Shown: in pieces, positions 6,754 through 37,011 of the stretch
Layout of the letters: every line of letters begins with the position of its first letter
Position numbering within the stretch: position 1 is the first letter of the stretch
Virus record (IMG/VR): IMGVR_UViG_3300035210_000102
Location: 28,354 to 92,353 of that record
DNA: 64,000 nt
Strand: one strand, 5' to 3'
Origin: a virus
Taxonomy: Duplodnaviria > Heunggongvirae > Uroviricota > Caudoviricetes
Translations under genes and position numbers: made by a program
The notes under the pieces: model-generated
Database searches by the model: none
Seen by the model: only the letters and a program-made list of their open reading frames with translations
What the model was told of the DNA's origin: nothing

Positions 6754-7389
6754 ATGCCCGGCACCATCCCCAAGGATAAACGGGGCAGCAAAGGTCTCAC
6801 GTTTTCGCAAGATAAGTTCGCGAGGGCGCTGGTGCAGACCGGCACCTACCATGAAGCTTTCCTGATCGCTCGCCCCGAAACAGCCAAACCCCTTACACGT
6901 GCCGAACGTTCGATGCGCGGCCGGGTTTGGGCCAACTACCCGCCCGTCGCGAAGCGCATTGACCAAATGCGAGCACAAGCCCGCAAGCGCAACGATGACG
7001 TTGTCGACCGCCTCATTCACGAGCTCGCCGGCATCGCATTCTCCGACATCCGTGATGTTCTCGACTTCGACAAAGACGGCGTCACGATCAAGAATTCCGA
7101 AGACATCCCCGACAGCGTCGCGCGCACGATCTCCGAAGTTTCCAGTGATGGCGACAAAGTGAAGGTCAAACTGTACGACAAGCTAGCCGCGATCGATAAG
7201 CTGGGCAAGCACCTCGGAATGTTTGTCGAGCGCCGCGAGCTTACCGGCGCCGGCGGCAAAGACCTAATTCCCAAGCAAATGGACGATTTAGAGCTTGCCC
7301 GCCTTGTGGCCTTTCTGATGGGCAACGGCGAGCGGCAACAGGCGGCCTTGACCGTCATCGACACTGACAGCGAGACCGTCAATGAGTGA
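6754..7389 (+). CDS. terS: terminase small subunit
   Basis: LTFSQDKFARALVQTGTYHEAFLIA...RVL.ELAGIAFSDIRDV...KLYDKLAAIDKLGKHLGMF matches the P27/Terminase_2-type small-subunit pattern. Confidence 0.6.
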   Translation: MPGTIPKDKRGSKGLTFSQDKFARALVQTGTYHEAFLIARPETAKPLTRAERSMRGRVWANYPPVAKRIDQMRAQARKRNDDVVDRLIHELAGIAFSDIRDVLDFDKDGVTIKNSEDIPDSVARTISEVSSDGDKVKVKLYDKLAAIDKLGKHLGMFVERRELTGAGGKDLIPKQMDDLELARLVAFLMGNGERQQAALTVIDTDSETVNE

Positions 7390-7891
7390 ACAAGACAGCT
7401 ACTCAACCCGCATCTATACGGTGCCATTTGTCGCCTTTCCCGTCTCCACAACGGCCGGCGCTTCTTATTATGACTTGTGGGCCGGAACCGCGACGACCGT
7501 CGGCCGCGTCGAGCTGAAAGAGGTCAACCTCGGCCAGCTCTCAACGGCCACCGCCGGTAACCAACAACTCAATGTGCAAATCTATCGCGGCTCGACTGCG
7601 ATCGGCGGCGGCTCTGCCGTTACGCCGGTGAACTTGAAAGGCTGGGCGACAGCCCCGGCCGCGGGCACCATTGTAAATGCGCCAGCCGCAACCCTGTCTT
7701 CGACCGTCGCGGCCACCCTGGTCATCGCCGACAACACGGACTGGTCGGGCAACTGGGACTATAGGCCAGACGATTTCGAAGAGCTTACCATCGACACCGG
7801 GCAAAGCTTCTTTGTGCGCGTCTCGGCGCCTCCCATACTCACGTATCTGTCGGGCACCCTGAAGTTTAAGGAAGTCACGAAGACAAAATAA
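7382..7891 (+). CDS. Ser/Thr/Gly/Ala-rich structural-type protein (paralog family member)
   Basis: Low-complexity beta-type composition. Motif IYRGSTA is shared with ORF 22839 (IFRGSTA). Confidence 0.4.
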   Translation: MSEQDSYSTRIYTVPFVAFPVSTTAGASYYDLWAGTATTVGRVELKEVNLGQLSTATAGNQQLNVQIYRGSTAIGGGSAVTPVNLKGWATAPAAGTIVNAPAATLSSTVAATLVIADNTDWSGNWDYRPDDFEELTIDTGQSFFVRVSAPPILTYLSGTLKFKEVTKTK

Positions 7892-8739
7892 TGTGCGCCA
7901 ATTCCGTCCTCATCACTGGCGGCACCGGCACGCTCGGCAACGCGCTGGCCCGCCACATCCTCAATTACGACCTATCGGACCGCATTTGCATTTATAGCCG
8001 TGGCGAGCACGCCCAGGCTGAAATGCGCGAACGTTTCAACAATGACCCCCGCCTGCGCTGGTTTATCGGCGACGTGCGCGACGCCAGCCGGCTCCGGCGG
8101 GCTATGAACGGTGTCGATCTCGTTATTCACGCCGCCGCTCTCAAGCGCATCGAGGTCGGCTTCTACAATCCGCTCGAGATGGTCAAAACCAATGTCGACG
8201 GAACCGCTAATGTCATCGAAGCATCGCAAGATGCCGGCGTGTCCAAAGTTGTCTTTGTTTCCTCAGATAAGGCCTATCAGCCGGTTTCGGCCTATGGCTT
8301 TTCCAAGGCGCTCGGCGAGGCGCTGATTCTCGCCGCAAATAACACCACGGGAGACACTACGCGTTTTGCGGCGGTCCGCTACGGCAATGTCTGGGGCTCT
8401 AATGGGAGCGTCGTGCCGAAATGGCGGAACATGGTCGCCACCGGCGCGAAGGAAGTCCCTGTGACGGACCCCGATTGTACACGCTTTTTTATGCGAATCG
8501 ATCAGGCTGTTAACCTTGTGTTAGAGACGGCGCAGTCAATGATGGGTGGCGAACTCGCCATTCCTGATCTTCCCGCGTACCGGATGGGAGACCTCGCGCA
8601 AGCGTTCGGCGTAGGCCCTCGCGTAGTCGGACTTCCCCCGTGGGAAAAACGACATGAGGGCATGTCGGCCGACAAGACCAGCGACAAAGCCCGCCGCATG
8701 AGCGTTGACGAACTGCAAGCGCTTCTGAAGGCCGCATGA
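7891..8739 (+). CDS. UDP-GlcNAc 4,6-dehydratase/epimerase (PseB/CapD/FlaA1-like SDR, short form)
   Basis: ITGGTGTLG Rossmann motif, IYSRGEHAQAEM, FIGDVRD, VIHAAALK, SSDKAY...YGFSK (catalytic YxxxK). Confidence 0.7.
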   Translation: MCANSVLITGGTGTLGNALARHILNYDLSDRICIYSRGEHAQAEMRERFNNDPRLRWFIGDVRDASRLRRAMNGVDLVIHAAALKRIEVGFYNPLEMVKTNVDGTANVIEASQDAGVSKVVFVSSDKAYQPVSAYGFSKALGEALILAANNTTGDTTRFAAVRYGNVWGSNGSVVPKWRNMVATGAKEVPVTDPDCTRFFMRIDQAVNLVLETAQSMMGGELAIPDLPAYRMGDLAQAFGVGPRVVGLPPWEKRHEGMSADKTSDKARRMSVDELQALLKAA

Positions 8740-9449
8740 GCAACCCGTTCGACATCAATCGCGAGTTTGAGGCGGCGATCGGCCTGTACACCGGCTCGCC
8801 CTATGTTGTCGCGGTCAACAGCTGCACCTCTGCGCTGTTCCTTGCGCTCAAATGGCACGAGATGAACAAGTTCGGCCGGGATGATTTTGAAGAGATTTAC
8901 GACTGGCCTGTCACGGTGACCATTCCGAAACGCACCTACGTGTCAGTCCCGATGCAAATCAAGCTTGCTGGGCTGCGCCTCGCATTCGAGGACAAAGAAT
9001 GGTCCGGAATGTATCCGCTAAAGCCTTTCCGCATTTGGGATAGCGCCCGATGGTTCACGGCGGGGCTGTTCCATAAGGCCTGCACCACCGGCGGTGGCCA
9101 CCCCCACAACTATGTGTGTGTCAGCTTTCACAGCACCAAGACGCTCGGTATCAAGCGCCGTTGGGGCGATGAGTACCGTGAAGGCTGGGACATCGAGCAG
9201 GGCGGCGCCATCCTGCACAATGACGCCGCGGCCGACAAATGGTTCCGCCGCGCCCGCTTTGACGGTCGCACTGAAGGCGTACCTGCGGCGGAAGACACCT
9301 TCGATATGCTCGGCTACCACTGCTACATGAACCCGAGCACGGCGCGGTTGGGGTTGCAGTTGTTACGTCGGTTGCCAAAAGATAACCCCCCGCTCCCCAA
9401 CGACCCCTACCCCGATTTGAGTAAGGCGCCGATTTTCAAATACGCCTAA
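8736..9449 (+). CDS. DegT/DnrJ/EryC1-family aminotransferase-like protein (short)
   Basis: AVNSCTSALFLAL, SFHSTKTLG (PLP-Lys region) and GYHCYMNPSTARLGLQLL near the C-terminus. Confidence 0.45.
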   Translation: MSNPFDINREFEAAIGLYTGSPYVVAVNSCTSALFLALKWHEMNKFGRDDFEEIYDWPVTVTIPKRTYVSVPMQIKLAGLRLAFEDKEWSGMYPLKPFRIWDSARWFTAGLFHKACTTGGGHPHNYVCVSFHSTKTLGIKRRWGDEYREGWDIEQGGAILHNDAAADKWFRRARFDGRTEGVPAAEDTFDMLGYHCYMNPSTARLGLQLLRRLPKDNPPLPNDPYPDLSKAPIFKYA

Positions 9450-10429
9450 GCCGCCTTCTTGTGCGGCTTTTGTGGCGTCCTGACCTCTGGGTTCTCTATC
9501 TTCTCCTTCGCAAACAGCGCGCCTTCCCTGGTCAGCCACCATTCCTCGCCTTTTCGCACCAAAAGTTGCTTCTTCTCTTGGTTGGTGAGTAACCCGCTCA
9601 GCAGGCTTGGGTTGCCGCCATACCCCGTAAATCCGGCCTCCCTCAATTCCGCTGTGGTTTGCTGCCCATTTTTGTAGATGTAAATCAGCAGTGCATGATT
9701 CTGCGGAATTGCCGGCGCCGCCTCGACCTTTGCCACCGCCTGCACAGGTTCGGCCACCACCGGCACACTCGGCTCCGGCTCCGGCTCCGGCTCGGCTGGC
9801 CTCGGCTCAGGCTGCGCGACAACCTCTAACGGTTTCACAGTCGGCGCGGCCTCGATCAGCTTCGGCTCTGACTTCGATTCACTGTCGGCCCCGGCTACGC
9901 GAAGAAATCTGAATTTCCTGGTTGCATGCTCTTCCTCGACCGCCAAAAGGTCCAGGATTAGGCCCATTACCCGGCCGCTCACTTCCGTTTGTATGCGAAA
10001 CAGGCCACCTTCCCGCGCTTCCGTTGCTCTCGCGATTCGCTCAAGCGTAGGCTTCACATCGAGGATCAAGTCAACCAGGGCCTCGTGATCGTCCGCTAGT
10101 TGGTCGATACGGCTTTTGATTATATTGGCGGGCTCGGTTGTCGAAACGAGGCGGGGCATTTTTGTCACCCTCACCACTTTTTCTGCAGGCGATAACGGCT
10201 TGATGCCCCTCACTTTTAGTTGCCGCCGCACCTCACCCCTTACATTCATCCACGTTCGGCCATCAGAGGGTGTCGCGCTTGTTGTGACCACTCCCTCGTT
10301 CCCGTTATGCCGCCACCTTATTTGGTAGTGGCCGCCGCCCGTGTAATGGTGGTTGACGTCGACAACCCCGTATCGTCGGAATTCCTGCTTTATCCGGTCT
10401 ACATTCTCGTTGCCTGCTGCTGCAGCCAT
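9446..10429 (-). CDS. hypothetical protein with (PE)n linker
   Basis: Only sizeable minus-strand gene in the island. Start taken at the ATG giving MAAAAGNEN. The supplied ORF extends to a GTG at 10477. Encodes a PEPEPEP repeat. Confidence 0.4.
   Translation of the reverse strand: MAAAAGNENVDRIKQEFRRYGVVDVNHHYTGGGHYQIRWRHNGNEGVVTTSATPSDGRTWMNVRGEVRRQLKVRGIKPLSPAEKVVRVTKMPRLVSTTEPANIIKSRIDQLADDHEALVDLILDVKPTLERIARATEAREGGLFRIQTEVSGRVMGLILDLLAVEEEHATRKFRFLRVAGADSESKSEPKLIEAAPTVKPLEVVAQPEPRPAEPEPEPEPSVPVVAEPVQAVAKVEAAPAIPQNHALLIYIYKNGQQTTAELREAGFTGYGGNPSLLSGLLTNQEKKQLLVRKGEEWWLTREGALFAKEKIENPEVRTPQKPHKKAA
9771..9800. repeat. hexanucleotide microsatellite (ccggct)n encoding the PE repeat
   Basis: ctccggctccggctccggctcggct, read directly from the sequence. 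Confidence 0.6.
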
Positions 10430-10468
10430 GCGCCTTTCACTCCTTGCGCGTTGTGTGCATACCCTATG

Positions 10469-10491
10469 CAAATGCACGGAAAGTGCATTTG
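10469..10491. promoter_or_regulatory. perfect 9-bp inverted repeat, candidate operator
   Basis: caaatgcac-ggaaa-gtgcatttg lies in the divergent intergenic region. ttacgca/tgcgtaa repeats sit further downstream at ~10537-10588. Confidence 0.4.
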
Positions 10492-10580
10492 GCCCACTCT
10501 TCCACTCTGCTCATCTTTCGTCAACCACGCCTTGCGAATTACGCACCTTGCATTTGCCAAGCTGCCGAAAATTACGCAAA

Positions 10581-11285
10581 ATGCGTACTATGACAATGAC
10601 AGTAGCCATAGTAGAAGCCCGCCTGAGATCGAAGCGTCTCCCGTGCAAAACGCTCCTTCCGTTGCCCACAGCGCGCCTTGTTATTCAAGAGGTGCTGTAT
10701 CGCGCCAGCAAAATCAAAGGTGTCGACGTGGTCATCGCCGCTTTGGCTGACGATCCCGGAACAGATTTATTGTTGCCTTGGATTAGCTACTCCATTGACT
10801 TCGCCTACGACAGCCACGCAGCCAAGATCGGCGTTGTTCGTGGCCCCGAAAACGACGTTCTAAGTCGCGACTTACTTGCTGCAAAGCATGTGGGGGCCGA
10901 CACGATAATGCGCCTCACCTCAGACTGCCCCCTACTCGATCCAGTAATCTGCGGGCAGGTCTTAGAGGCCTATCGTGGCGGCTTCGTCGATTATTGTACG
11001 AACGCTTTTCCCCGCACTTGGCCGCGCGGTTATGACTGTGAAGTCTTCTCGATAGACCTTCTCGAGGAAGCCAACAAATACGGCGACGACCAATACCCCG
11101 ACAACCGCCAAGGCGTCGACGTTTGGATGCAAGCCAGCCCAGATGTGCGCCGCCTGAACATCACAGCCCCAGGTGAAAGCAGAGGACACATTCAGTGGTC
11201 ACTGGACGAGGAACCCGACTACGAGCGTATTGTCGCGGAATTCAATCGCCGCATAGCCGCTGGGGGCGATACGCTATGCGAGTAG
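10581..11285 (+). CDS. sugar-nucleotide cytidylyltransferase (PseF/NeuA/SpsF-like)
   Basis: N-terminal IVEARLRSKRLPCKTLLPL...LV.QEVL.RA matches the acylneuraminate cytidylyltransferase P-loop-like motif. Start chosen at MRTMTMTVAIVEARL. Confidence 0.55.
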   Translation: MRTMTMTVAIVEARLRSKRLPCKTLLPLPTARLVIQEVLYRASKIKGVDVVIAALADDPGTDLLLPWISYSIDFAYDSHAAKIGVVRGPENDVLSRDLLAAKHVGADTIMRLTSDCPLLDPVICGQVLEAYRGGFVDYCTNAFPRTWPRGYDCEVFSIDLLEEANKYGDDQYPDNRQGVDVWMQASPDVRRLNITAPGESRGHIQWSLDEEPDYERIVAEFNRRIAAGGDTLCE

Positions 11286-11367
11286 CTGAATTCGTCTTTT
11301 CCTTCGCTGTTGCGGTCGCAATCGGAAAAGCTTTTGCATACGCACTCTTGCCGACGCCGTTGATGCC

Positions 11368-11856
11368 ATGAAGCTCGTCCCCGTCGACCCGAAAAACAAG
11401 GCTCACGTGCGCTTCCTGTGGCGGCTACTCAGGACCCGGTTGGCAGTTTCCCGCATAAGCCATGACGGCAAGACCACCTGGAAACAGCACCAAGCGTTTG
11501 TCGCCAACCATCCTTACCATGATTGGTGCCTCGTTGAAGTAGCAAAAACAGGGCATTGGTGGAACTGGCCCCGCTACCCGCGCTTTGCAGGCGCCGCTTT
11601 CATCTCCATGCCGGCTAAACCAAGCGTTGTCGGCGATGAGCTGCATGTCGAGTTGCTGCCAAAACACCAAGGTCGCGGCCTCGCTGAAAAAGCACTGCTC
11701 GCCTTGATGAAGAAGCACCCCCGCAAGCGCTACGTGGCGAATGTCGCGCCCGGCAATCTCGGCTCATATTCTCTTTTTAACAAGATGGGCTTTCGCCTCT
11801 GCCAGTATACGCTGGAGCGCATTATCGACGAATATACGCCAGAGCGGGTAAAATGA
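11368..11856 (+). CDS. GNAT-family N-acetyltransferase (PseH-like candidate)
   Basis: Motif-A-like QGRGLAEKALLAL. Size matches the GNAT fold. Confidence 0.5.
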   Translation: MKLVPVDPKNKAHVRFLWRLLRTRLAVSRISHDGKTTWKQHQAFVANHPYHDWCLVEVAKTGHWWNWPRYPRFAGAAFISMPAKPSVVGDELHVELLPKHQGRGLAEKALLALMKKHPRKRYVANVAPGNLGSYSLFNKMGFRLCQYTLERIIDEYTPERVK

Positions 11857-12836
11857 TCCCGCATAACAAAGTCTTAACCACAGAGCAGGACATCGAAGCC
11901 CTTGTCCGCGTGGGGCGTTCGAACCAGCTTACCCAAGGCCCCGAAGTGGAAGCGCTCGAGGCAGAATACTGCGCCTACACCGGGCGCAAATATGCGGTTG
12001 CGGTGGGGAGCGGTTTAGCAGCCCTTCGTCTTGCGTTGCTGTGTCGTCGCGATCTCATCCCCACCGTGCCCGCATATTCCTGTGTCGCCCTGGCGAATGC
12101 CGCCTACAGCTATTCGGCCAAGCTTGGCATTGCTGACGCACTCCCGCTTTCCTGGACGCTTGACCCGAGCGACATTGGCGAATCGCCCGGCCAAACCGCC
12201 GTCGTCACAGTCAACACGTTTGGCGTGAAGGCACCGCTCCCGCGCGCCCCGCTTCTTGTAATCGAAGACTGCACGCACGGATTTGGCGATCATCGATCAG
12301 ACATTGAAGTCTTGAGCCTGCACGCCACGAAACTTGTTGGCGGCGCCGCCGGCGGCATGATTTTGACCGACGTGAAGACCTACGCCGACCAATGCCGCGA
12401 TCGGCGTGATTACGACGACAAGGCCAGCTCCGGCACACGCTTAAATGACAAGATGAGCGACATTCACGCCGCTTTGGCCCGCGCCAAGTTGGCTCGCCTG
12501 CCCGAACTTATTGAAGAGCGCGAAGAGCATGCTGCCGCATATCGTTGTGGTCTCGAGCATATTGACCCCGGCCTGCTCACGTTACCTTTGGGCGGCGACC
12601 GGACTTGGTATCGCTTTGTGATACGCACCAAGATGGAAGCACCTCTCCTACGCGCCGCCCTGCATCGTAAGGGTGTCGGCGCCGAACTTCCTATCGAGTG
12701 GTGGCCAGATGACAAAGCGCCCTACCCCGCCGCGCTCAACGCTTACCGGCGCAACGTTTCCCTCCCCCTTTATCCCGGGCTCTCCAAAGAGGCCCTTCAT
12801 CATGTCTGCAAGGCTGTATCGGAGATTATAGCGTGA
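11853..12836 (+). CDS. DegT/DnrJ/EryC1 PLP-dependent sugar aminotransferase (PseC/LegC-like)
   Basis: AVAVGSGLAALRLAL, D..H.FG, SLHATKLV (PLP lysine) and the typical C-terminal helical region. Confidence 0.7.
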   Translation: MIPHNKVLTTEQDIEALVRVGRSNQLTQGPEVEALEAEYCAYTGRKYAVAVGSGLAALRLALLCRRDLIPTVPAYSCVALANAAYSYSAKLGIADALPLSWTLDPSDIGESPGQTAVVTVNTFGVKAPLPRAPLLVIEDCTHGFGDHRSDIEVLSLHATKLVGGAAGGMILTDVKTYADQCRDRRDYDDKASSGTRLNDKMSDIHAALARAKLARLPELIEEREEHAAAYRCGLEHIDPGLLTLPLGGDRTWYRFVIRTKMEAPLLRAALHRKGVGAELPIEWWPDDKAPYPAALNAYRRNVSLPLYPGLSKEALHHVCKAVSEIIA

Positions 12837-12957
12837 CCTGGGTTCTCATCATCTTCCTGAGTAACTTCGCGACATCCGTCGATTTTGACTCAAAGGAAGC
12901 CTGCCATGCCGCGCAAAAGGCGATCACGCAAATCAAGAACGGCAACCCGTCCTCGGT

Positions 12958-13671
12958 GTGCGCCGCCAAAACTGGCTACCTCTATCCGATCAGGCGGGCA
13001 CAGTGACAAACGTTCTCTGCGTCGCCGCCCACCCCGACGATGAATCCCTCGGCTGCGGTGGCACACTCGCAAAACACGCCCTCAACGGCGACAATGTGTA
13101 CGTCATGTTCATGACCGACGGCGTCGGCGCCCGGCAACCCAACGATGACAGCTTGCAACAGCGCCGTGACGCTTCGATCAAGGCATGCCGCGCCCTCGGC
13201 GTGACGCCAATGTGGGCGAACACTCTGCTGCCCGATAACGCCATGGACTCCGTTCCGCTGCTCGAGGTCGTGCGGCGCATAGAGAAAGCGCCCTACCCTG
13301 CTCCCGACATCATATACACGCACCACGGGGGCGATTTAAACGTCGATCACGTCATAACCCACAAGGCGGTCATGACGGCGTTTCGACCAAAACCCGGCTC
13401 GAGCGTAAAGGCGATTTACTGCTTTGAAGTGCCGAGCTCGACGGAATGGGCGCCTAGCAGTTCACCGCAGTTCAATCCAAGACATCACGTCAACATCACC
13501 GGCGCACCCGGCGAGAAAAAAATCGAAGCCCTCAACGTTTACCGAATGGAGATGCTCGCATGGCCGCATGCGCGCTCCATGATGGGCATCCGTGCACTTA
13601 TGCAGTGGCGGGGCGCGAGCAGAGGATTTGACGCAGCAGAAGCGTTTGTAGTGGAAAGGTCAATCGCGTGA
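12958..13671 (+). CDS. PIG-L/LmbE-family N-deacetylase
   Basis: LCVAAHPDDESLGCGGTLAKH, the signature AHPDDE zinc-binding motif, plus downstream HxDH. Confidence 0.7.
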   Translation: MRRQNWLPLSDQAGTVTNVLCVAAHPDDESLGCGGTLAKHALNGDNVYVMFMTDGVGARQPNDDSLQQRRDASIKACRALGVTPMWANTLLPDNAMDSVPLLEVVRRIEKAPYPAPDIIYTHHGGDLNVDHVITHKAVMTAFRPKPGSSVKAIYCFEVPSSTEWAPSSSPQFNPRHHVNITGAPGEKKIEALNVYRMEMLAWPHARSMMGIRALMQWRGASRGFDAAEAFVVERSIA

Positions 13672-14696
13672 AAATCGGTGATCGCATCATCGGAAAGGGT
13701 CTTTGCCCCTATGTCGTTGCGGACATCTCGGCAAGCCACAATGGCTCACTCGATCGCGGCCTCGCGCTGATAGATGCCGCCAAGGCCGCGGGCGCGGACG
13801 CTGTCAAATTCCAGGCGTATTTGCCGGAGCTCGTGAGCTGTCATGTTGACCGACCGGAGTTCATCATCCAGGGTGGCCCTTGGAAGGGCATGCACCTTTA
13901 CGAGCTTTACCAGGACGCCTACACCCCGCGGCAAATGTTGCAAGCGTTCTTCGGCTACGCGCGTGAAATCGGCATAACCGCCTTCTCCACGGCATGCGCC
14001 AATGAGGACGTTGATTTCCTGGAAACGCTCGATAATCCGGTCATAAAAATCGCCTCTATGGACATTGTGAACCTGCCGCTGATCGATTACGCCGCGAGCA
14101 AGCGCCGCCCGCTCATCATCTCAACTGGCATGGCCAGCGAAGATGAAATTATGGACGCAATGGACGTGGTCGAAATGCAGGGCGCGGAATATTTGCTTTT
14201 GCACTGCGTATCCGAATACCCTTGTCCCCTTGCGAAGGCCAACATTGCCGGCCTTGTCGACCTCGATTGCTGGGCTGGTCCATCCGGTTATTCCGATCAC
14301 ACTCTTGGTTTTGCTGCTGCCGTGATGGCTACCACGGCCGGCGCCACCATGATCGAAAAGCACCTTACCCTTGACGCCAAGGGTGGCGGTCCCGATGATC
14401 ACTTTGCGACTGAACCGCACGAATTCAAAACGATGGTTTCGATGATCCACGACGCGCACAAGGCTATGACGCCGGTCGCCGCTGAAGCAGAAAACCCCCA
14501 CAAGGCTTTGCGCCCATCCCTTTACGTCGTTTCGGATTTGAAAGCCGGAGAGCTGTTCACGCCGCAAAGCGTCAGGGCGATCCGGCCATCCTTCGGTCTT
14601 CCCCCGGTCGAGCTCCCCGCGGTCCTGGGATGCCGCGCCTCTCGTGACATTGCCCGCGGCGAACCGCTGCATTGGAATATGGCGGAGGCGGCATAA
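13668..14696 (+). CDS. nonulosonic acid synthase (NeuB/PseI/LegI family)
   Basis: ISASHNGSLDRGLALIDAAKAAGADAVKFQ NeuB signature and a C-terminal SAF domain. Confidence 0.8.
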   Translation: MKIGDRIIGKGLCPYVVADISASHNGSLDRGLALIDAAKAAGADAVKFQAYLPELVSCHVDRPEFIIQGGPWKGMHLYELYQDAYTPRQMLQAFFGYAREIGITAFSTACANEDVDFLETLDNPVIKIASMDIVNLPLIDYAASKRRPLIISTGMASEDEIMDAMDVVEMQGAEYLLLHCVSEYPCPLAKANIAGLVDLDCWAGPSGYSDHTLGFAAAVMATTAGATMIEKHLTLDAKGGGPDDHFATEPHEFKTMVSMIHDAHKAMTPVAAEAENPHKALRPSLYVVSDLKAGELFTPQSVRAIRPSFGLPPVELPAVLGCRASRDIARGEPLHWNMAEAA

Positions 14697-15385
14697 TGCG
14701 AAAGATTGGCTCCCCCGTCCCCACGCCGCAGGAATATTACAGCAATCTTCTCCGGGAGCACGGCCCGGGTCCGGCCTCTGTCGATGTGACGCGCGAAGGC
14801 CAGCTCCAACGGTTCGAAATTCTCTTGAAGGCTTTCGGCGACACGACCAATTGCCAGTTTTTGGATGTTGGCTGCGGTTACGGCGCATTTGCTGATTTTC
14901 TTTACGACAATGGCCGCCACAGCGCCAGTTATCACGGCATCGACGTCTGCTCTGAAATGATCCGTGCGGCATGCGACAGATTCATGGCGCGTAAGCCGAG
15001 CGAGCGGTTGGATGATCTCGCATTTGAGGTGCGCGATCTTCTCGCGGCGCCTCTTCCCCGGACTTATGAATGCGTCGTCGCTTCCGGCCTTTTCCAACTG
15101 CACCACGGGCTCTGGCACGCCGAGCGTCTCATCAGGGCGCTTTGGGAGCACACTGAACACATTCTTGCGTTCAACATGCTGTCGGTTCACGCGCCCCAGC
15201 CACACACAAACGGCGAGCTGTACGCGGACCCCAAACGCATCTGGGATATTTGTGAGCGTCTGACTCCGCACGTTTTGCTGGATCACACGTACCGGCGGAA
15301 CGATTTCACGGTTGTGCTCCACCGCGGACCTGATACGGTCGGACAGTTCAGTTTTCCAAAGGTTATGGAAGCCGCCGCGGCATGA
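14696..15385 (+). CDS. class I SAM-dependent methyltransferase
   Basis: LDVGCGYGAF motif I. The ATG overlaps the NeuB stop (ATAATG) and follows a ggagg RBS. Confidence 0.6.
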   Translation: MRKIGSPVPTPQEYYSNLLREHGPGPASVDVTREGQLQRFEILLKAFGDTTNCQFLDVGCGYGAFADFLYDNGRHSASYHGIDVCSEMIRAACDRFMARKPSERLDDLAFEVRDLLAAPLPRTYECVVASGLFQLHHGLWHAERLIRALWEHTEHILAFNMLSVHAPQPHTNGELYADPKRIWDICERLTPHVLLDHTYRRNDFTVVLHRGPDTVGQFSFPKVMEAAAA

Positions 15386-16092
15386 CCGTCGCTCATATCA
15401 ACCAATTCCGGTTTCTCCCCGCCCTCAACTTTATGCAACGTCCGCTCATCGCCGATTGGTTCATTTGGCGCGATGACGTGCAATATCAGCCGAAAGACTG
15501 GGAAAACCGAAACAAGATCAAGACGCGCGACGGCTGGATGTGGCTCACCGTGCCGATGAAGAAACAGCCGATCGGCGTTCCGATCGGCGAGGCGGAGATT
15601 GATAATTCGGTCCCCCGGTGGCGCGGTAAGATGCTGCAATCTCTGATCTGCAACTATGCGCGCTCGCCCTATTATGATGAATTTATGCCCGGCTTTGAGG
15701 AAATCCTTTCCGAGGATTGGCGCTATCTGGCAGACCTGAATTTGGCGCTGTTTGATTGGCTGCGCGGGGCCTTCCGCTTTCCGCTCAAATGTCGCTTCGT
15801 CCGAGCTTCCGAGCTGGGCTGCACCGGCGACAAGGATGATATCCTGATCGAAATGTGCAAGAAGGTCGGCGCCACGACGTACCTATCGGGCGCTGAAGGG
15901 CGTAATTACAACCGGCCGGAACGCTGGACCGAGGCAAACATCGCCCTGACCTACCACGACTACACTTATCCGATTTACCCGCAACAGCACGGCGAATTCG
16001 AGCCATGGATGTGCGCGCTTGATTTGCTGCTCAACTGCGGCGGACAGCGCGGAAGGGAAATCCTGGAGCAACCCATGAATTTCACATCCTAA
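15382..16092 (+). CDS. WbqC-like family protein
   Basis: HINQFRFLPALNFMQ...WRDDVQYQPKDWENRNKI...WLTVP matches the WbqC pattern seen in O-antigen/nonulosonic-acid clusters. Confidence 0.6.
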   Translation: MTVAHINQFRFLPALNFMQRPLIADWFIWRDDVQYQPKDWENRNKIKTRDGWMWLTVPMKKQPIGVPIGEAEIDNSVPRWRGKMLQSLICNYARSPYYDEFMPGFEEILSEDWRYLADLNLALFDWLRGAFRFPLKCRFVRASELGCTGDKDDILIEMCKKVGATTYLSGAEGRNYNRPERWTEANIALTYHDYTYPIYPQQHGEFEPWMCALDLLLNCGGQRGREILEQPMNFTS

Positions 16093-16106: not shown

Positions 16107-16415
16107 TTGCTCCTGGCAACAGCTTTTGTCGGCCCTGCCCGCGCTGAATGCGGCATCGCTTCGACCTATCACGAAGGCAGCCGCACGGCGAGCGGCGAGC
16201 ACTACAACCCCCATGGCATCTCAGCCGCTCACAGAACGCTTCCGTTCGGTAGTCGCGTCGTGGTTCGTAATCAGCGCACTGGACGCACAATCGAAGTCCG
16301 TATCAATGACCGCGGACCCTTCATTGCCGGACGCATCATCGATCTTTCAGCGGGCGCAATGCGCGCCCTGGCTGGCGCAGCAGGGCTGGTCCCCGTTTGC
16401 ATCGAGCGCCGCTAA
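16107..16415 (+). CDS. secreted RlpA-like double-psi beta-barrel (DPBB) protein
   Basis: Signal-peptide-like N-terminus, then GIASTYHEG..TASGE...AAH.TLPFGS.V.V.N..TGR...VRINDRGPF..GRIIDLS. Confidence 0.55.
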   Translation: MLLATAFVGPARAECGIASTYHEGSRTASGEHYNPHGISAAHRTLPFGSRVVVRNQRTGRTIEVRINDRGPFIAGRIIDLSAGAMRALAGAAGLVPVCIERR

Positions 16416-16551: not shown

Positions 16552-16576
16552 AGCCGCTCCTGAGCGGCTTTTTTTA
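16552..16576 (+). terminator. rho-independent terminator
   Basis: agccgctcctgagcggct hairpin followed by T7. Confidence 0.7.
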
Positions 16577-16645
16577 TGCCCGCCGCCATGCGGGTATTGG
16601 CCATCCGGCCCAGCAAACCAGCAATAAGCAAATCGGAGGAAACCA

Positions 16646-17163
16646 TGGCAACACCACCTGTCGCCCAATACGGCATGTATTCGTGGAACGATTCAATGAA
16701 GACCAGCATGCACGGTCGGCGTTGCGGTCTCGACAATTTGGATTTCGGCGTAGGCGGCCCCGGTAGCCGCGATGGCGTTGAAATCTGGACGCAAGGCAGT
16801 ACCGGCTCTGGCGCATCCAGCACGGCCATTCTTCATCCCGGCGGCCTTAGCATGCTGCAATGCACGACTGCGTCGACGTTTACAATGCCAGCACCTTCCG
16901 CCACCTATGGCGGTGTCAACAAGAGCATCCAGTTCTACACGACCGCCGCCGGCGTCACGATGGAAATCGATATCACCTCTGGGAACTTCCAGACGTCCGC
17001 GAGTTCCACTTGGGTAAAAATTACAATGGCGTCCGCGGCCGGCGCAGTAAACGGCGGCATCTACCTACAGTGTATCCCGACATCGAGCGGCGCCTACTAC
17101 TGGGCGCTGAACGGCTCTACCGGCGTCACCGGCTCCGGCTCTACTCACATCGTCTTCGCTTAA
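16646..17163 (+). CDS. Ser/Thr/Gly-rich protein (paralog family member)
   Basis: Start at MATPPVAQ after a ggagg RBS. S/T/G-rich beta-type composition. Confidence 0.4.
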
Positions 17164-17182: not shown

Positions 17183-18097
17183 TTGAAGAAGATTGCTCTG
17201 ATCGGGTCCGCTCCATCATCGGTGAAGCGGGCCCCTTACGATGATCCATCTTGGACCATCTTCGCGTGCTCCCCTGGTGCGATCGGCCATTGCCGTCGCA
17301 TCGACCATTTTTTCGAGATGCACGCTTGGCGGCCGGAAAACCCGTGCTGCGAAATCAACTACGTCAAGAAACTGGCCGCCCTTGAGTGCCCGGTTTATAT
17401 GGTCAATCCGGTTCCGGATGTGCCGACGTCAGTGTCTTATCCAAAAGAGCAAGTGCTCGGCTGGTCTTACGGCACGGTGCGCAACCATAAAGGCGAAGAG
17501 CGCCACCTCAGATTTAATCCAAACGATTTTGCCTCGAGCCTCTCCTGGATGCTGGCCTTTGCAATTATGCAAGGCCCCGAGGAGATAGGGTTGTGGGGCG
17601 TCGACATGGCCGCCAATGAAGAATATGGCGGACAGAAAGATGGATGCCTCGCGCTTATCCATATCGCCAAATCACTTGGTATCAGAATTACCGTTCCGCC
17701 CGAAAGCGATTTACTGCGCCCCGCGCCGCTATACGGCTACCAAGAACACGACCACATGTACATCAAGCTTAATCAGCGTCTGCTGGAGCTTGATCAACGT
17801 ATCAACGAAGCAATTCAGCGAGAAGGAGCAGCGCGCGAGGAGCGCATGTTCCTCATGGGCGCGAAAGACGACATAGTGTACACACTCCGAACATGGATTG
17901 CTGACGGACAAGCTATCCATCGTATGTTTTCCGAACCCGAAGACGCGCTCAATCCGCGTGACGGAATTTACCAAGCCCTACTTGATGGCGAAGAAGCAGA
18001 GCCCGGCTTTGCCCCGCCACCGCGCGCACGGCGCAACCCAAAAAAGCCGCCGCATAAGCACGTTAGCGTGGTCGCGCGAGAAGAAGCCACCGCCTAG
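17183..18097 (+). CDS. DUF115/Maf-like protein, candidate nonulosonic-acid (pseudaminyl) transferase
   Basis: TTG start after an aaggaa RBS. The N-terminal IALIGSAPS, the FACS..A block and SSLSWMLAFAI.QGPEEIGLWGVDMA resemble the MptE/motility-accessory-factor DUF115 blocks. Confidence 0.4.
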   Translation: MKKIALIGSAPSSVKRAPYDDPSWTIFACSPGAIGHCRRIDHFFEMHAWRPENPCCEINYVKKLAALECPVYMVNPVPDVPTSVSYPKEQVLGWSYGTVRNHKGEERHLRFNPNDFASSLSWMLAFAIMQGPEEIGLWGVDMAANEEYGGQKDGCLALIHIAKSLGIRITVPPESDLLRPAPLYGYQEHDHMYIKLNQRLLELDQRINEAIQREGAAREERMFLMGAKDDIVYTLRTWIADGQAIHRMFSEPEDALNPRDGIYQALLDGEEAEPGFAPPPRARRNPKKPPHKHVSVVAREEATA

Positions 18098-19666
18098 ATG
18101 GGCCTAGTCGAGGAGCTCTTCGCCAAACTGGCGGGGATGAGCGCTGAGCAAAAAGCAGAGCTGCAAAGGGCTGTCCTTAGTAAAGGCAAGCCCATTTGGT
18201 TCCCGAACCCCGGCCCGCAGACGCAAGCCTACATGTCGGAAGCGGATGAACTGTTCTACGGAGGTTCCGCAGGCGGAGGGAAAACGGACTTACTTGTTGG
18301 GTTATCCCTTACCGAGCATAAGCGCGCTTTGATCTTGCGCCGCACAAACAAAGAAGCATCAAAACTATTCGACCGCTACTTTGACATACTCGGTTCTCGA
18401 GACGGCTGGAACGGCCAGGATCACACATGGCGCCTTCCGGAAGGCCGCGTTATTGACTTGGCCGGCGTTCAACTTGAAGACGACAAACAGAAACTGAAGG
18501 GCACCGCCCGCGACTTCTATGGCTTCGACGAGGTCAGCGATTTTTCGGAAACGCAATTCAGGTTCATCATCGGCTGGAACCGCTCGCCAAATTCCGCCCA
18601 GCGCTGCCGCGTAGTCGCTGCAGGCAACCCACCTACCCAGCCCGAGGGTTTGTGGGTCATCAAATACTGGGGCCCGTGGTTGGACGAAACGCATCCCAAT
18701 CCCGCGAAACCCGGCGAGCTGCGCTGGTTCACCACCGTCGCTGGCAAGGATATGGAAGTCGACGGCCCGGGCCCGCACCTCATCAACGATGAGTATATCC
18801 GCGCCCGATCTAGAACATTTATCCCCGCCAGACTGGACGACAACCCCTATCTCGCCCGCACAAACTATGAGGCCAGTCTAGCCGCCCTGCCCGAGCCATT
18901 GCGCAGCGCGTACAAAGATGGCCGCTTCGACATCTCGATTAAGGACGCCGATTTTCAGTGCATTCCGACTGCCTGGATTCTTGCCGCTCAAGCGCGCTGG
19001 GACAAGGACGGATACAGGAAAGCCCCGATGACGGCCATGTCTTATGATCCGGCCGGCGGGGGCAAGGATGCCGCTGAACTGTGCTGGCGTCACGATGCGT
19101 GGTTCGCGCCGCTGGTATCCGAAAAAGGCGAGGAAACTTCGGACGGCTCACGTTCCGCGGCTTACATCGTCAAGCACCGTAAAGACGACGCGCCCGTGGT
19201 GGTCGACGTTGGCGGCGGGTATGGCGGCGCAGTGACAATGCGCCTGCGCGACAACAACATTGATCACACCAGTTTCAACGGCTCCAAAAGCTCCACAGCG
19301 CGCACAAAAGACGGCAAGCTGACATTTGCCAACCGACGCGCCGAAGCGTGGTGGAAATTCCGCGAAGAGCTCGATCCGGACCAACCCGGCGGCTCAGTTA
19401 TTGCCCTGCCCCCTGATCCCGAGTTGCGGGCCGATTTGGCCGCGCCGAGCTATGAAGTCAAGGCACGCGGCATTCAAATCGAGTCCAAGGACAAATTGCG
19501 TGAACGCCTCGGCCGATCGCCCGGAAAAGGCGATGCAGTTGTCATGTGCCTCTCCGTAGGCAACACCGCCGTTCGGCGTGCCCTGGCGCGCAAATCTGCA
19601 GATCAAGGGCCGCAATTTGCGCACATGCGCGAGGGGCCGCTTTCTCGCTATAGGAGACAGCAATAA
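18098..19666 (+). CDS. terL: terminase large subunit
   Basis: Walker A YGGSAGGGKT, ATPase coupling motif and a C-terminal nuclease region. Confidence 0.8.
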   Translation: MGLVEELFAKLAGMSAEQKAELQRAVLSKGKPIWFPNPGPQTQAYMSEADELFYGGSAGGGKTDLLVGLSLTEHKRALILRRTNKEASKLFDRYFDILGSRDGWNGQDHTWRLPEGRVIDLAGVQLEDDKQKLKGTARDFYGFDEVSDFSETQFRFIIGWNRSPNSAQRCRVVAAGNPPTQPEGLWVIKYWGPWLDETHPNPAKPGELRWFTTVAGKDMEVDGPGPHLINDEYIRARSRTFIPARLDDNPYLARTNYEASLAALPEPLRSAYKDGRFDISIKDADFQCIPTAWILAAQARWDKDGYRKAPMTAMSYDPAGGGKDAAELCWRHDAWFAPLVSEKGEETSDGSRSAAYIVKHRKDDAPVVVDVGGGYGGAVTMRLRDNNIDHTSFNGSKSSTARTKDGKLTFANRRAEAWWKFREELDPDQPGGSVIALPPDPELRADLAAPSYEVKARGIQIESKDKLRERLGRSPGKGDAVVMCLSVGNTAVRRALARKSADQGPQFAHMREGPLSRYRRQQ

Positions 19667-35437: not shown

Positions 35438-36079
35438 ATGGCCGATAAACTCGACATATTCAGTCGCACGCTTGTAAAGTGCGGCCAGCGCCCTTTGCTT
35501 TCGCTCAGTGACGCCCGCCCAGAACAGCGCGCTATCGATCGCGTCTACGATTCCGCAGTTGAGAAACTCATTGAAGGCGCTTTGTGGAAGTTTGCCGCGC
35601 GCACAGATGAGCTTCAACCCTCCGCTACGGTGACATCCAACTTTGGCTACCAGTACGTGTACGAGCAGCCCGAGGACTATGTTCGCATTATCCGCATCTG
35701 CGACAACGAACGCCTTCGCCCGACGCTTCGCGACTTCATGCTCGAGGGCGAGTTCATCTACGCGGACTGCAACCCACTATATTTGCAATACGTTTCGGAT
35801 GACCCGAGGCACGGCTACGATGTTGGCAAATGGACGCCATCATTCACTGATGCGCTGGTCGACGAACTCGTTGTTCGGACAGCCCCGTTTCTGATGAATG
35901 CCGATGTGCAGAAAATCGAACAGCTCGAGAAACAGGCGAAGCGCAGCTTTTATGTGGCGAAAGGAAGGGATGCGGTCAATCAGCCGGAGTGCTGGACGCC
36001 CCCCGGCCGGCTCGTTCGTGCCCGTTCTGGCGGCACACGCATCAACAATATGCGCGCTTCGGGCTACCCGTATTATTAA
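35438..36079 (+). CDS. hypothetical virion protein (possible head-tail adaptor/tubular protein A-like by size and position)
   Basis: 213-aa ORF after the capsid block. The call rests only on position and size. Confidence 0.3.
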   Translation: MADKLDIFSRTLVKCGQRPLLSLSDARPEQRAIDRVYDSAVEKLIEGALWKFAARTDELQPSATVTSNFGYQYVYEQPEDYVRIIRICDNERLRPTLRDFMLEGEFIYADCNPLYLQYVSDDPRHGYDVGKWTPSFTDALVDELVVRTAPFLMNADVQKIEQLEKQAKRSFYVAKGRDAVNQPECWTPPGRLVRARSGGTRINNMRASGYPYY

Positions 36080-37011
36080 GGCCGCAAGTGCTGATCGACG
36101 TTCATAAAAGGCATGACGCTGGACAGCATTGACTTCGGCAGCTCGCCATTCCAGCGATCGGCTTTTTTGTATTCCACGTAGGTTGGATTTGTTGAGATGG
36201 CCTTGCCTTGCGCTTCGATGGCTTTCGCTTCCGCCTCGCCTTTCAGCTGAATGCCTTTCGCGGTCGCCTCGGCTTGCAATAGCGTAGCGTCGGCCGACCC
36301 CCTTGCCTTCTCGCGTGCTGCGTTGGCCTCACCTTCCGCGGCGATCTTCACCATCTGGGCCGTCTTCTCGGCTTGCTGGCGTTGATATTCAACGGCTTCG
36401 ATGTTGGCTTTTTGTACCGCCGCATTGCCAACTGCGTTCCGGAACGACTCTTTGTATTGCAAGTCGGTGAGCTGGAAATCCACGACCTCCACGCCGAGAT
36501 GCACGGCGTCCGTCTTCAAGGTGGAAAAGATGGCATCACGAATGGAACCACGATCGCCGGCAATCTTCTGCGCGTTGGCATGCCCAAACGCCGTTTTCAC
36601 GCGGTCATTTGAAAGAGATGCCAGCCGCGACTCATAGTCCTGCACGTGTTCGAACAAATATAGCAGCCGGTCCTTTGGCAGGACGTAAAACACGGTGTAG
36701 GAAATGTCGACTTCCTGATTATCGACCGTGTAGGTGTTGGCATGCTTTGTCGGCACGAGCTCGAGAATGTCCGTGCGGTACGTATTGGCCGTCTCCACCC
36801 ATGGTAGTTTGAAGTTCAAGCCCGGGCCCGCAAGGCGTACCGCCTTACCGAATTGCGTCACGACGGCCACTTGGTTCTGCTGCACCGAAAAGTAGGCCAG
36901 TAGCCCCGTAATGATCACGAGGGCTGCGATAGCAACCCCCACAATGAGTTTGATGCGGCCCCTTCCAGGCGCCGGCTTGTGCGGGTTTCTGTAATCTGCT
37001 TCGAGTGTCAT
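36076..37011 (-). CDS. SPFH/band-7 (stomatin/prohibitin/HflC-like) membrane protein
   Basis: N-terminal TM segment, SPFH core (VVTQFGK...LPWVE...VDNQEVDISYTVFY) and a C-terminal coiled coil AEGEANAAREKARG. Confidence 0.7.
   Translation of the reverse strand: MTLEADYRNPHKPAPGRGRIKLIVGVAIAALVIITGLLAYFSVQQNQVAVVTQFGKAVRLAGPGLNFKLPWVETANTYRTDILELVPTKHANTYTVDNQEVDISYTVFYVLPKDRLLYLFEHVQDYESRLASLSNDRVKTAFGHANAQKIAGDRGSIRDAIFSTLKTDAVHLGVEVVDFQLTDLQYKESFRNAVGNAAVQKANIEAVEYQRQQAEKTAQMVKIAAEGEANAAREKARGSADATLLQAEATAKGIQLKGEAEAKAIEAQGKAISTNPTYVEYKKADRWNGELPKSMLSSVMPFMNVDQHLRP

What the first reader, a model, noticed from the sequence alone, without database searches (positions are those of the whole stretch)
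17183..18097. DUF115/Maf-like candidate glycosyltransferase that may attach the nonulosonic acid to proteins
The last ORF of the island has an N-terminal IALIGSAPS Rossmann-like block and a later SSLSWMLAFAIMQGPEEIGLWGVDMA block. Both resemble the conserved blocks of DUF115 (MptE-like) proteins. That family includes the motility-accessory-factor (Maf) pseudaminyltransferases that O-glycosylate flagellin. A biosynthesis pathway plus a dedicated transferase on one phage would amount to a self-contained protein O-glycosylation system. This is not a described phage function.
Basis: inference. Interest (0 to 1): 0.85.

Follow-up and report, generated by a model that had tools for sequence, protein, structure and literature searches.

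The report
Phage sialyltransferase-like enzyme beside pseudaminic-acid genes
This phage gene encodes a member of a very large, unnamed, virus-only protein family that is predicted to fold like the bacterial enzymes that attach sialic-acid-type sugars, and it usually sits next to genes that make such a sugar, so it is probably the enzyme that attaches the sugar, although its target is still unknown.

Summary

The family has at least 4,329 clusters (50% identity) and is almost entirely viral. In 30 of 37 loci with enough upstream sequence (a few are the same contig fetched twice), a NeuB/PseI gene lies within 10 kb. In an unrelated marine virus a homologue sits inside a nonulosonic-acid gene cassette.

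My best reading is a CMP-pseudaminic-acid-dependent transferase. The acceptor was not tested. A conserved Ser/Thr-rich small protein encoded immediately upstream (74 of 85 loci) is a new candidate acceptor.

The gene is not really the last gene of the island. Together with the Ser/Thr-rich gene it belongs to the phage backbone and persists in four loci with no island genes in the 10 kb read upstream. Verdict: new variant of a known kind; interpretation partly supported.

The parts
17183..18097 (+). Focal gene, 304 aa. Residues 1-190 form a sialyltransferase-like (GT42/Maf/MptE-fold) domain and residues 191-237 a long helix. The C-terminal tail is poorly predicted and includes a basic stretch (RARRNPKKPPHKH). 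The protein looks soluble, with no transmembrane segment.
16645..17163 (+). Ser/Thr-rich small protein, 172 aa, 25% S+T. It has a conserved N-terminal motif S-[IL]-[HY]-G-R-x-L-G-[LI]-D, and an all-beta core is predicted at low confidence. It is a conserved upstream partner of the focal gene and a candidate acceptor or virion surface protein.
   Evidence: The ORF immediately upstream of the focal gene falls into one homologous cluster in 74 of 85 loci. Gene call of 172 aa. No Pfam, PHROGs or PDB match. AF2 pLDDT 53. Composition.
16552..16569 (+). Terminator-like GC hairpin followed by a T run, lying between the island and the Ser/Thr-rich gene.
   Evidence: Consensus scan. The number of such sites equals that in shuffled sequence, so this is only suggestive.
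7891..8739 (+). PseB-like UDP-GlcNAc 4,6-dehydratase.
   Evidence: Polysacc_synt_2 1.6e-75. TIGR03589 PseB is the best hit at 299 bits, below its cut-off.
8736..9449 (+). Short DegT/PseC-like protein. Only about 37 residues match the aminotransferase profile.
   Evidence: Short versions recur in related islands.
10596..11285 (+). CMP-sugar synthetase (CTP_transf_3; a PseF/KdsB-like cytidylyltransferase). The start shown is the one used by the public gene call.
11368..11856 (+). GNAT acetyltransferase (PseH-like role).
11853..12836 (+). Full-length DegT/PseC-like aminotransferase.
12958..13671 (+). PIG-L family deacetylase (tailoring).
13668..14696 (+). Pseudaminic acid synthase PseI (NeuB + SAF domains).
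   Evidence: TIGR03586 PseI scores 354.1 bits against a cut-off of 340.25. NeuB 9.8e-71.
14672..15385 (+). SAM-dependent methyltransferase (tailoring).
15382..16092 (+). WbqC-family protein (tailoring; exact function unknown).
   Evidence: PF08889 1.1e-60.
18098..19666 (+). Terminase large subunit. Its start codon directly abuts the stop codon of the focal gene.
   Evidence: tblastn to annotated TerL genes, e.g. Acidovorax phage AP1 at 46.8% identity; sequence junction.
6754..7389 (+). Terminase small subunit. The island lies between it and the terminase large subunit.
   Evidence: Terminase_2 1.5e-15.

Best explanation
The gene encodes a soluble, cytoplasmic, single-domain nonulosonic-acid transferase, i.e. 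a sialyltransferase-like inverting glycosyltransferase of the GT42/Maf fold class. The adjacent island makes a CMP-activated pseudaminic-acid derivative: PseB, PseC, PseH-like GNAT and PseI build the sugar, the cytidylyltransferase activates it, and PIG-L, the methyltransferase, WbqC and a second aminotransferase tailor it. The enzyme binds this donor through the N-terminal G-S-A-P-S loop, the S118/S119 motif and the G-V-D141 motif, and transfers the sugar to a hydroxyl group of an acceptor. The most likely acceptors are Ser/Thr residues of phage proteins made at the same late stage. The first candidate is the conserved Ser/Thr-rich small protein encoded 19 bp upstream; the other Ser/Thr-rich fibre-like virion proteins are also possible. 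Phages that keep the gene pair but show no island genes nearby would draw on the host's CMP-sugar pool.

Shown here: the fold class, the conservation of the motifs, and the genomic association with nonulosonic-acid genes. Inferred: the donor identity, the catalytic roles of individual residues, and above all the acceptor. My confidence is about 0.7 for the enzyme class and about 0.4 for a protein acceptor; the 0.55 given is for the combined statement.

For: Sequence. With a diverse family profile, the only eight PDB sequences with E <= 10 are all GT42 sialyltransferases, aligned at the same motif (E 0.12-0.53). hhalign against Cst-II reaches probability 51% and E 1.5e-4, with S118/S119 aligned to T131/S132 and D141 to D154.

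Catalytic residues. In Maf, residues shown to be essential are an acidic residue, a Ser, and an Asp/Glu/Asn 23 residues after the Ser (10.1101/2020.06.03.131540). The focal protein has conserved E45, S118/S119 and D141, with a Ser-to-Asp spacing of 22-23 and an E-to-D spacing of 96 (85-94 in Maf).

Context. Of 37 loci with at least 8 kb upstream, 30 have NeuB and 33 have at least one pathway gene within 10 kb. In a marine virus of a different type, the homologue P0121 (hhalign probability 98%) lies between the cytidylyltransferase and SDR/NeuB genes, inside a replication module and far from any terminase. No other glycosyltransferase domain was found among the window ORFs that were scanned.

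Candidate acceptor. The Ser/Thr-rich partner is conserved in 74 of 85 loci.
Against: There is no significant sequence-profile match to any curated glycosyltransferase family. The sequence links to GT42 are individually non-significant.

No equivalent of the Cst-II catalytic His188 was identified. The residue equivalences with Maf rest on spacing, not on a superposition, because no model coordinates or Maf sequence were available.

Four loci (L007, L008, L017, L026) carry the gene pair with no nonulosonic-acid gene detected within 10 kb, and the Microcystis phage homologue also has none nearby. The marine homologue has no Ser/Thr-rich neighbour.

Ser/Thr richness is shared by several fibre-like proteins of this phage, so it does not single out the neighbour as the acceptor. 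The related loci are mostly one phage lineage, so the co-occurrence counts are not independent events.
Confidence: 0.55

Rival explanations
1. The enzyme class is the same (a CMP-nonulosonic-acid transferase), but the acceptor is a host glycan rather than a protein. It would act on a lipooligosaccharide, O-antigen or capsule intermediate at the inner face of the membrane, as Cst-II does. That would remodel the infected cell surface, for example to block superinfection or to stop progeny adsorbing to debris.
For: The closest matches by sequence and by Foldseek are the GT42 enzymes that sialylate lipooligosaccharide. Longer family members carry a basic C-terminal tail after a long helix, which recalls a peripheral membrane anchor. 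The marine homologue sits in an early/replication module, not a late one.
Against: The basic tail is missing in the many 220-240-aa family members. No integrase was seen in the window ORFs scanned. The family is almost absent from 185,579 bacterial species genomes: 4 hits, all on MAG contigs (three under 5 kb, one 54 kb). That argues against a lysogenic-conversion role. In this phage lineage the gene is embedded in the packaging/late module and directly abuts TerL.
Confidence: 0.15
2. The protein is not a glycosyltransferase but a nucleotide-dependent enzyme of the same fold, such as a pyrophosphokinase like MptE (6-hydroxymethyl-dihydropterin pyrophosphokinase) or thiamine pyrophosphokinase. 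Its function would be independent of the sugar island.
Against: No pterin or thiamine pathway genes are nearby. The only sequence-level hits in the PDB are sialyltransferases. The top Foldseek hits are exclusively sialyltransferases, and the pyrophosphokinases come much lower. The gene is embedded inside a nonulosonic-acid cassette in an unrelated virus.
Confidence: 0.1
3. The protein is a non-catalytic packaging or assembly accessory. Its constant position next to the terminase would reflect a role in DNA packaging or head assembly, and the fold would be a relic.
For: In the podophage lineage the gene always lies just upstream of TerL or TerS and directly abuts TerL here.
Against: The conserved residues are exactly the donor-binding motifs of the enzyme fold. 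The marine homologue is far from any terminase. A separate TerS is present in the window.
Confidence: 0.05
4. The enzyme is a nonulosonic-acid transferase that decorates phage DNA, acting on hydroxymethylated pyrimidines as an anti-restriction hypermodification.
For: Phage DNA glycosylation by virus-encoded glycosyltransferases is known (10.1101/2023.12.21.572611; PMC13326640). The gene is next to the packaging genes. The marine homologue is in a replication module.
Against: No hydroxymethylase, TET/5mYOX enzyme or other base-modification gene was found among the window ORFs scanned. The two DNA-glycosylation papers checked mention no nonulosonic, sialic or pseudaminic acid, nor NeuB or sialyltransferases.
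Confidence: 0.03

Closest known systems
Maf (motility accessory factor) flagellin nonulosonic-acid transferases; central MAF_flag10/DUF115 domain, Pfam PF01973; structure 5mu5
   Different: There is no Pfam PF01973 hit for any of 149 family members scanned. The focal protein has 304 aa (220-240 in many relatives) against about 630 aa for Maf. It lacks Maf's N-terminal Rossmann-like and C-terminal helical-bundle domains and has one long helix instead. It is encoded by phages with no flagellin nearby, so the acceptor must be different.
CAZy GT42 sialyltransferases Cst-I/Cst-II of Campylobacter jejuni (1ro7, 2p2v) and the Pasteurella enzyme (9c08); Pfam PF06002
   Same: These are the top Foldseek hits (E about 1e-5) and the only PDB sequences picked up by the family profile. 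The donor-binding motif aligns in register: T131-S132...G152-I-D154 of Cst-II with S118-S119...G139-V-D141. Read directly from the two sequences, G-x-x-P-S occupies residues 8-12 in both proteins, and a Cys follows the second strand (C30 in Cst-II, C29 here). A poorly predicted loop follows the G-x-D motif where, from my own knowledge, Cst-II has its flexible lid.
   Different: Sequence identity is only 13-17%, and there is no PF06002 hit. No counterpart of the catalytic His188 or of the phosphate-binding Tyr156/Tyr162 was recognised. The donor is expected to be a pseudaminic-acid derivative, not Neu5Ac. GT42 enzymes act on lipooligosaccharide glycans.
MptE (archaeal 6-hydroxymethyl-7,8-dihydropterin pyrophosphokinase, 8sd5) and thiamine pyrophosphokinases
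   Different: They are kinases, not glycosyltransferases. No pterin or thiamine context is present here. They rank far lower in Foldseek and are absent from the sequence-profile hits.
Phage-encoded virion glycosylation in mycobacteriophages (Freeman et al. 2023, PMC10527164; known to me, seen here only as a citation)
   Same: A phage carries its own glycosyltransferase next to structural genes, and Ser/Thr-rich virion proteins are the presumed acceptors.
   Different: From my own knowledge, those systems use conventional nucleotide-hexose glycosyltransferases and host sugar pools. Here the phage would also carry a complete nine-carbon acidic sugar pathway and a sialyltransferase-fold enzyme. 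Nothing has been shown experimentally for this lineage.

Membership tests
Pfam PF01973 (DUF115 / MptE-like / MAF_flag10) | Match to the family HMM at or above the gathering score | tested here: not met
   There is no hit even at E <= 10 for the protein, for 38 relatives or for 111 cluster representatives.
Maf flagellin glycosyltransferases | Central domain with a modified GT-A, sialyltransferase-like fold | tested here: met
Maf flagellin glycosyltransferases | Three-domain architecture of about 600 aa (N-terminal Rossmann-like, central, and C-terminal helical bundle) | tested here: not met
   The protein has 304 aa, consisting of one domain, one long helix (191-237) and a poorly predicted tail. 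Many relatives have only 220-240 aa.
Maf flagellin glycosyltransferases | Essential acidic, Ser and acidic residues (MmMaf E324/D415; CbMaf D272/S334/D357) | tested here: inconclusive
   E45, S118/S119 and D141 are conserved with matching spacing (paper). No residue-level superposition or Maf sequence alignment could be made.
Maf flagellin glycosyltransferases | Genetic linkage to nonulosonic-acid biosynthesis genes and to flagellin | tested here: inconclusive
   Linkage to the biosynthesis genes is met (30 of 37 loci; marine cassette). No flagellin was found in any locus; instead a Ser/Thr-rich small protein lies upstream.
CAZy GT42 / Pfam PF06002 (CST-I) | Sequence-profile membership | tested here: not met
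   There is no PF06002 hit. Against the PDB, hmmsearch gives E 0.12-0.53 only, and hhalign gives probability 51%.
CAZy GT42 / Pfam PF06002 (CST-I) | Fold and CMP-binding motifs (G-x-G-P-S loop, T-S-G, G-I-D) | tested here: met
CAZy GT42 / Pfam PF06002 (CST-I) | Catalytic His188 and phosphate-binding Tyr156/Tyr162 | tested here: inconclusive
   No aligned His or Tyr was recognised in the lid region. Conserved E147, Q151 and H47 are candidates, but no superposition was possible.
MptE / thiamine pyrophosphokinase | Fold | tested here: met
MptE / thiamine pyrophosphokinase | ATP-dependent pyrophosphoryl transfer, and a pterin or thiamine pathway context | not testable with these tools
   No such pathway genes were found in the window. 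Activity needs an enzyme assay.
Pseudaminic acid pathway (the neighbouring island) | PseI equivalog above the curated cut-off, plus PseB, PseC, PseH and PseF homologues | tested here: met
   TIGR03586 scores 354.1 against a cut-off of 340.25. PseB and PseC are the best hits for their ORFs but fall below their cut-offs. CTP_transf_3 and GNAT are present. No PseG homologue was found.

The most novel reading that the evidence does not exclude
Thousands of environmental phages carry a compact, self-contained module: a Ser/Thr-rich acceptor protein, a minimal sialyltransferase-fold enzyme, and often a full pseudaminic-acid pathway. With it they would coat part of their virion with a bacterial sialic-acid-like sugar. 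This would be a form of phage virion glycosylation based on nine-carbon acidic sugars, carried out by a glycosyltransferase family absent from the Pfam, PHROGs and NCBIfam libraries searched here.
Probability: 0.35. Interest if true: 0.8.

Novelty: new variant of a known kind. Interest (0 to 1): 0.62.

Why it matters
Few nonulosonic-acid transferases are known (a point made in PMC5420450, listed). A family of at least 4,329 clusters with this fold, absent from Pfam, PHROGs and NCBIfam, would greatly enlarge the set. It would also provide very small (220-300 aa) enzymes for glyco-engineering. For phage biology, virions carrying pseudaminic acid would bear on adsorption, particle stability and immune recognition. 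The finding also suggests a concrete, testable acceptor-enzyme pair. If instead the enzyme modifies the host surface or is a kinase, the very wide distribution of the gene pair next to the terminase in environmental podophages still needs explaining.

Tried and rejected
- Pfam, PHROGs and NCBIfam scans of the protein gave nothing. Pfam scans of 38 and 111 relatives gave nothing relevant.
- A PDB sequence search with the first, narrow profile gave only coiled-coil noise from the C-terminal helix.
- megablast of the region against deposited phages found no match. tblastn found a single distant homologue, in a Microcystis phage, annotated as a methyltransferase.
- The afdb50 fold library was not available.
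- I tried to bridge to DUF115 through the divergent marine homologue, but it has no relatives beyond itself.
- The exhaustive representative search was dominated by close family members, so it gave the family size but no bridge.
- The Maf alignment in the paper's supplement is an image, so no Maf sequence could be recovered for a profile comparison.
It was therefore not used for fold search.
- The partner shows no relation to the phage's gp80 fibre, to the PDB, to Pfam or PHROGs, or to deposited phages.
- I considered a DNA-modification role and set it aside for lack of any base-modification genes.
- The closest cultured relative by TerL, Acidovorax phage AP1, has no such gene annotated between TerS and TerL.
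- Literature searches found no description of phage-encoded pseudaminic-acid transfer.

Full report
**Observation.** A good AAGGAA ribosome-binding sequence lies 7 nt upstream. The TAG stop is followed immediately by the ATG of the next gene. That next gene is the terminase large subunit (tblastn to annotated TerL genes). A public contig carrying the identical protein has the same gene call. The two quoted blocks are residues 4-12 and 118-143, and they are the conserved heart of a protein family. In 38 homologues G8, S9, A10, P11, S13, C29, S30, P31, E45, H47, S118, G139, D141, M142, E147, Q151, S175, D176, Y184 and G185 are invariant. In 111 representatives of 50%-identity clusters G8, G139, E147 and Y184 stay invariant, and E45, H47, D141 and Q151 stay at or above 90%.

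**The neighbourhood.** Between the small terminase (6754-7389) and the large terminase lies a sugar island. It holds a PseB-like dehydratase, a short DegT-like protein, a CTP_transf_3 cytidylyltransferase, a GNAT, a full DegT/PseC-like aminotransferase, a PIG-L deacetylase, a NeuB+SAF synthase, a SAM methyltransferase and a WbqC-family protein. The synthase passes NCBIfam's equivalog cut-off for pseudaminic acid synthase PseI (354.1 bits against 340.25). PseB and PseC are the best NCBIfam matches of their ORFs. The island is therefore a pseudaminic-acid pathway with extra tailoring enzymes; no PseG homologue was seen. The rest of the window is a podophage structural region. It contains a T7-type portal, a gp80-like fibre, a Phage_capsid_2 major capsid protein, a tail fibre with an S74 chaperone domain, a 4,710-aa DarB-like protein and a GH108 endolysin.

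**Is it DUF115?** By sequence profile it is not. Pfam, PHROGs and NCBIfam give no hit for the protein. Not one of 38 + 111 relatives touches PF01973 or PF06002, even at E <= 10. By structure it belongs to that fold class.
- The AlphaFold2 model is confident (mean pLDDT 85.6).
- All eleven Foldseek matches with E <= 1e-3 are Cst-II, Cst-I or the Pasteurella sialyltransferase.
- Among predicted viral structures, a DUF115 protein and an MptE-like protein appear in the list.
- A diverse family profile searched against all PDB sequences returns only eight sequences with E <= 10. All eight are GT42 sialyltransferases aligned at the same motif, and none is individually significant.
- hhalign of the family against Cst-II gives probability 51% and E 1.5e-4, with S118/S119 on T131/S132 and D141 on D154. 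I had recalled the Cst-II sequence from memory and confirmed it as identical to 1ro7.
- Residues shown by mutagenesis to be essential in Maf are an acidic residue, a Ser, and an Asp/Glu/Asn 23 residues after that Ser (10.1101/2020.06.03.131540). The focal protein has conserved E45, S118/S119 and D141 with the same spacing. This last point rests on spacing only, because I could not obtain model coordinates or a Maf sequence.

**What the family is.** An exhaustive search of 1.84 billion cluster representatives finds 4,329 with E <= 1e-3 and 1,064 with E <= 1e-30. None of the 120 best clusters listed in the first search carries a Pfam domain or an informative name. IMG/VR holds at least 263 relatives. 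A pattern scan of one genome from each of 185,579 bacterial and archaeal species found only four, all on MAG contigs, three of them under 5 kb. Deposited phage genomes hold one distant homologue, in a Microcystis phage, annotated as a methyltransferase. It is thus a large family, essentially virus-only and uncultured.

**Link to the sugar pathway.** Thirty-seven loci have at least 8 kb of sequence upstream of the gene; a few are the same contig fetched twice. Of these, 30 have a NeuB homologue and 33 have at least one pathway gene within 10 kb. Because most of these phages are related (shared TerL and portal), the count alone is weak. The stronger evidence comes from a marine (Tara) virus of a different type. 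There a divergent homologue (hhalign probability 98%) lies between the cytidylyltransferase and an SDR/NeuB pair. The cassette also holds a UDP-GlcNAc 2-epimerase-like gene. It sits next to ribonucleotide reductase and DNA polymerase genes and far from any terminase. The gene therefore travels with nonulosonic-acid genes, not with packaging genes. Against a strict link, four loci (L007, L008, L017, L026) and the Microcystis phage have the gene with no pathway gene nearby. If the transferase reading is right, these phages would have to use the host's CMP-sugar.

**A new piece: the upstream partner.** In 74 of 85 loci the ORF immediately upstream of the gene belongs to one family of small (about 130-170 aa) proteins with 21-33% Ser+Thr. 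They share a conserved N-terminal motif S-[IL]-[HY]-G-R-x-L-G-[LI]-D and usually end in a Ser/Thr run. In the window this is 16645-17163 (172 aa, 25% S+T). The pair persists in the loci that show no island genes. In the window, a DPBB-type ORF and a terminator-like hairpin (only suggestive) separate the pair from the island. So the focal gene is better described as part of a conserved backbone pair next to which the island sits. The partner has no match in Pfam, PHROGs, the PDB or deposited phages, and its model is poor (pLDDT 53; all-beta core, termini unpredicted). Its Ser/Thr content resembles that of the phage's fibre-like proteins (23-31%), against 7-11% for enzymes. That fits a surface-exposed virion protein, but it also means the partner is not the only plausible acceptor.

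**Mechanism proposed.** The island makes a CMP-activated pseudaminic-acid derivative. The enzyme is soluble and cytoplasmic (no hydrophobic segment). It would bind the donor with the glycine-rich loop, the Ser motif and the G-V-D motif, and transfer the sugar to Ser/Thr hydroxyls of late phage proteins before assembly. The upstream partner is the first candidate. The fold class, motif conservation and gene association are shown. The donor, the residue roles and the acceptor are inferred.

**Rivals.**
- The same chemistry could act on a host glycan, as Cst-II does; this is supported by GT42 being the closest sequence match and by the basic tail of the longer members.
- The protein could be a pyrophosphokinase of the same fold, since MptE scores nearly as high as Maf.
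- It could be a non-catalytic packaging accessory.
- It could glycosylate DNA; no base-modification genes were found, and the two DNA-glycosylation papers checked do not mention such sugars.

**Novelty.** Full-text searches found no description of a phage-encoded pseudaminic-acid or Maf-like transferase. I rate this as a new variant of a known kind. The fold and the likely chemistry are known. The family itself is undescribed, minimal in architecture, virus-specific and very large, and it comes with a candidate acceptor partner.

Noticed in passing
window 47396-61528 (+): A single 4,710-aa ORF with AAA_34, Helicase_C_4 (Strawberry-notch type), FtsK_gamma and methyltransferase-like hits. It is a DarB-like giant protein, probably an injected anti-restriction protein, in a podophage.
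   Followed up: partly
window 16645-17163 (+); also L002 9531-9989, L007 9597-10004, L008 9577-9978 and about 70 other loci: A family of small Ser/Thr-rich proteins with no database match, conserved immediately upstream of the focal gene. The N-terminal motif S-[IL]-[HY]-G-R-x-L-G-[LI]-D lies in a region that was not confidently predicted.
   Followed up: partly
window 9446-10477 (-): A 343-aa ORF on the opposite strand (called as 327 aa on the public contig) is inserted inside the sugar island. It has no Pfam hit and a PEPEPEP linker, and may be a regulator or a moron (an inserted accessory gene). Related islands also carry minus-strand inserts, including an HTH_31 gene (L004/L005).
   Followed up: no
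window 8736-9449 (+): A 237-aa protein matches only about 37 residues of the DegT/PseC N-terminus. Short versions of 205-237 aa are conserved in many related islands, alongside a separate full-length aminotransferase here (11853-12836). Its function is unclear.
   Followed up: no
window 7891-16092: The island has no recognisable PseG. It does carry PIG-L deacetylase, SAM methyltransferase, WbqC and a second aminotransferase, which suggests a modified pseudaminic-acid derivative rather than plain Pse5Ac7Ac.
   Followed up: partly
window 16107-16415 (+) and 16552-16569: A DPBB/RlpA-like lytic transglycosylase ORF (Pfam 2.5e-22) that the public gene caller did not call. It is followed by a GC hairpin plus T run that looks like an intrinsic terminator.
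   Followed up: no
L100/L101 6960-12850 (Tara Oceans contigs): A marine virus carries a different nonulosonic-acid cassette next to ribonucleotide reductase and DNA polymerase genes. The order is Epimerase_2, 2-hydroxyacid dehydrogenase, cytidylyltransferase, a homologue of the focal gene, an SDR and NeuB.
   Followed up: partly
L001 7908-8711 (Microcystis phage Mvi-Yong1342-1, XAN61349.1): The only homologue in deposited phage genomes is annotated 'type 11 methyltransferase'. This is probably a misannotation.
   Followed up: no
P0175, P0272, P0275 (550-594 aa); L003 4906-7626: Some family members are about twice the normal length and match the profile in 2-4 separate stretches, which suggests inserted elements such as inteins or homing endonucleases. 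In L003 the neighbouring gene at the terminase large subunit position is 906 aa and carries a LAGLIDADG domain.
   Followed up: no
window 36076-37011 (-): An SPFH/Band 7 family gene lies on the minus strand in the middle of the structural module.
   Followed up: no
L089, L090, L093: These viral contigs have PseI (44% identity), PseB and cytidylyltransferase homologues but no homologue of the focal gene within 10 kb. They presumably use another transferase.
   Followed up: no
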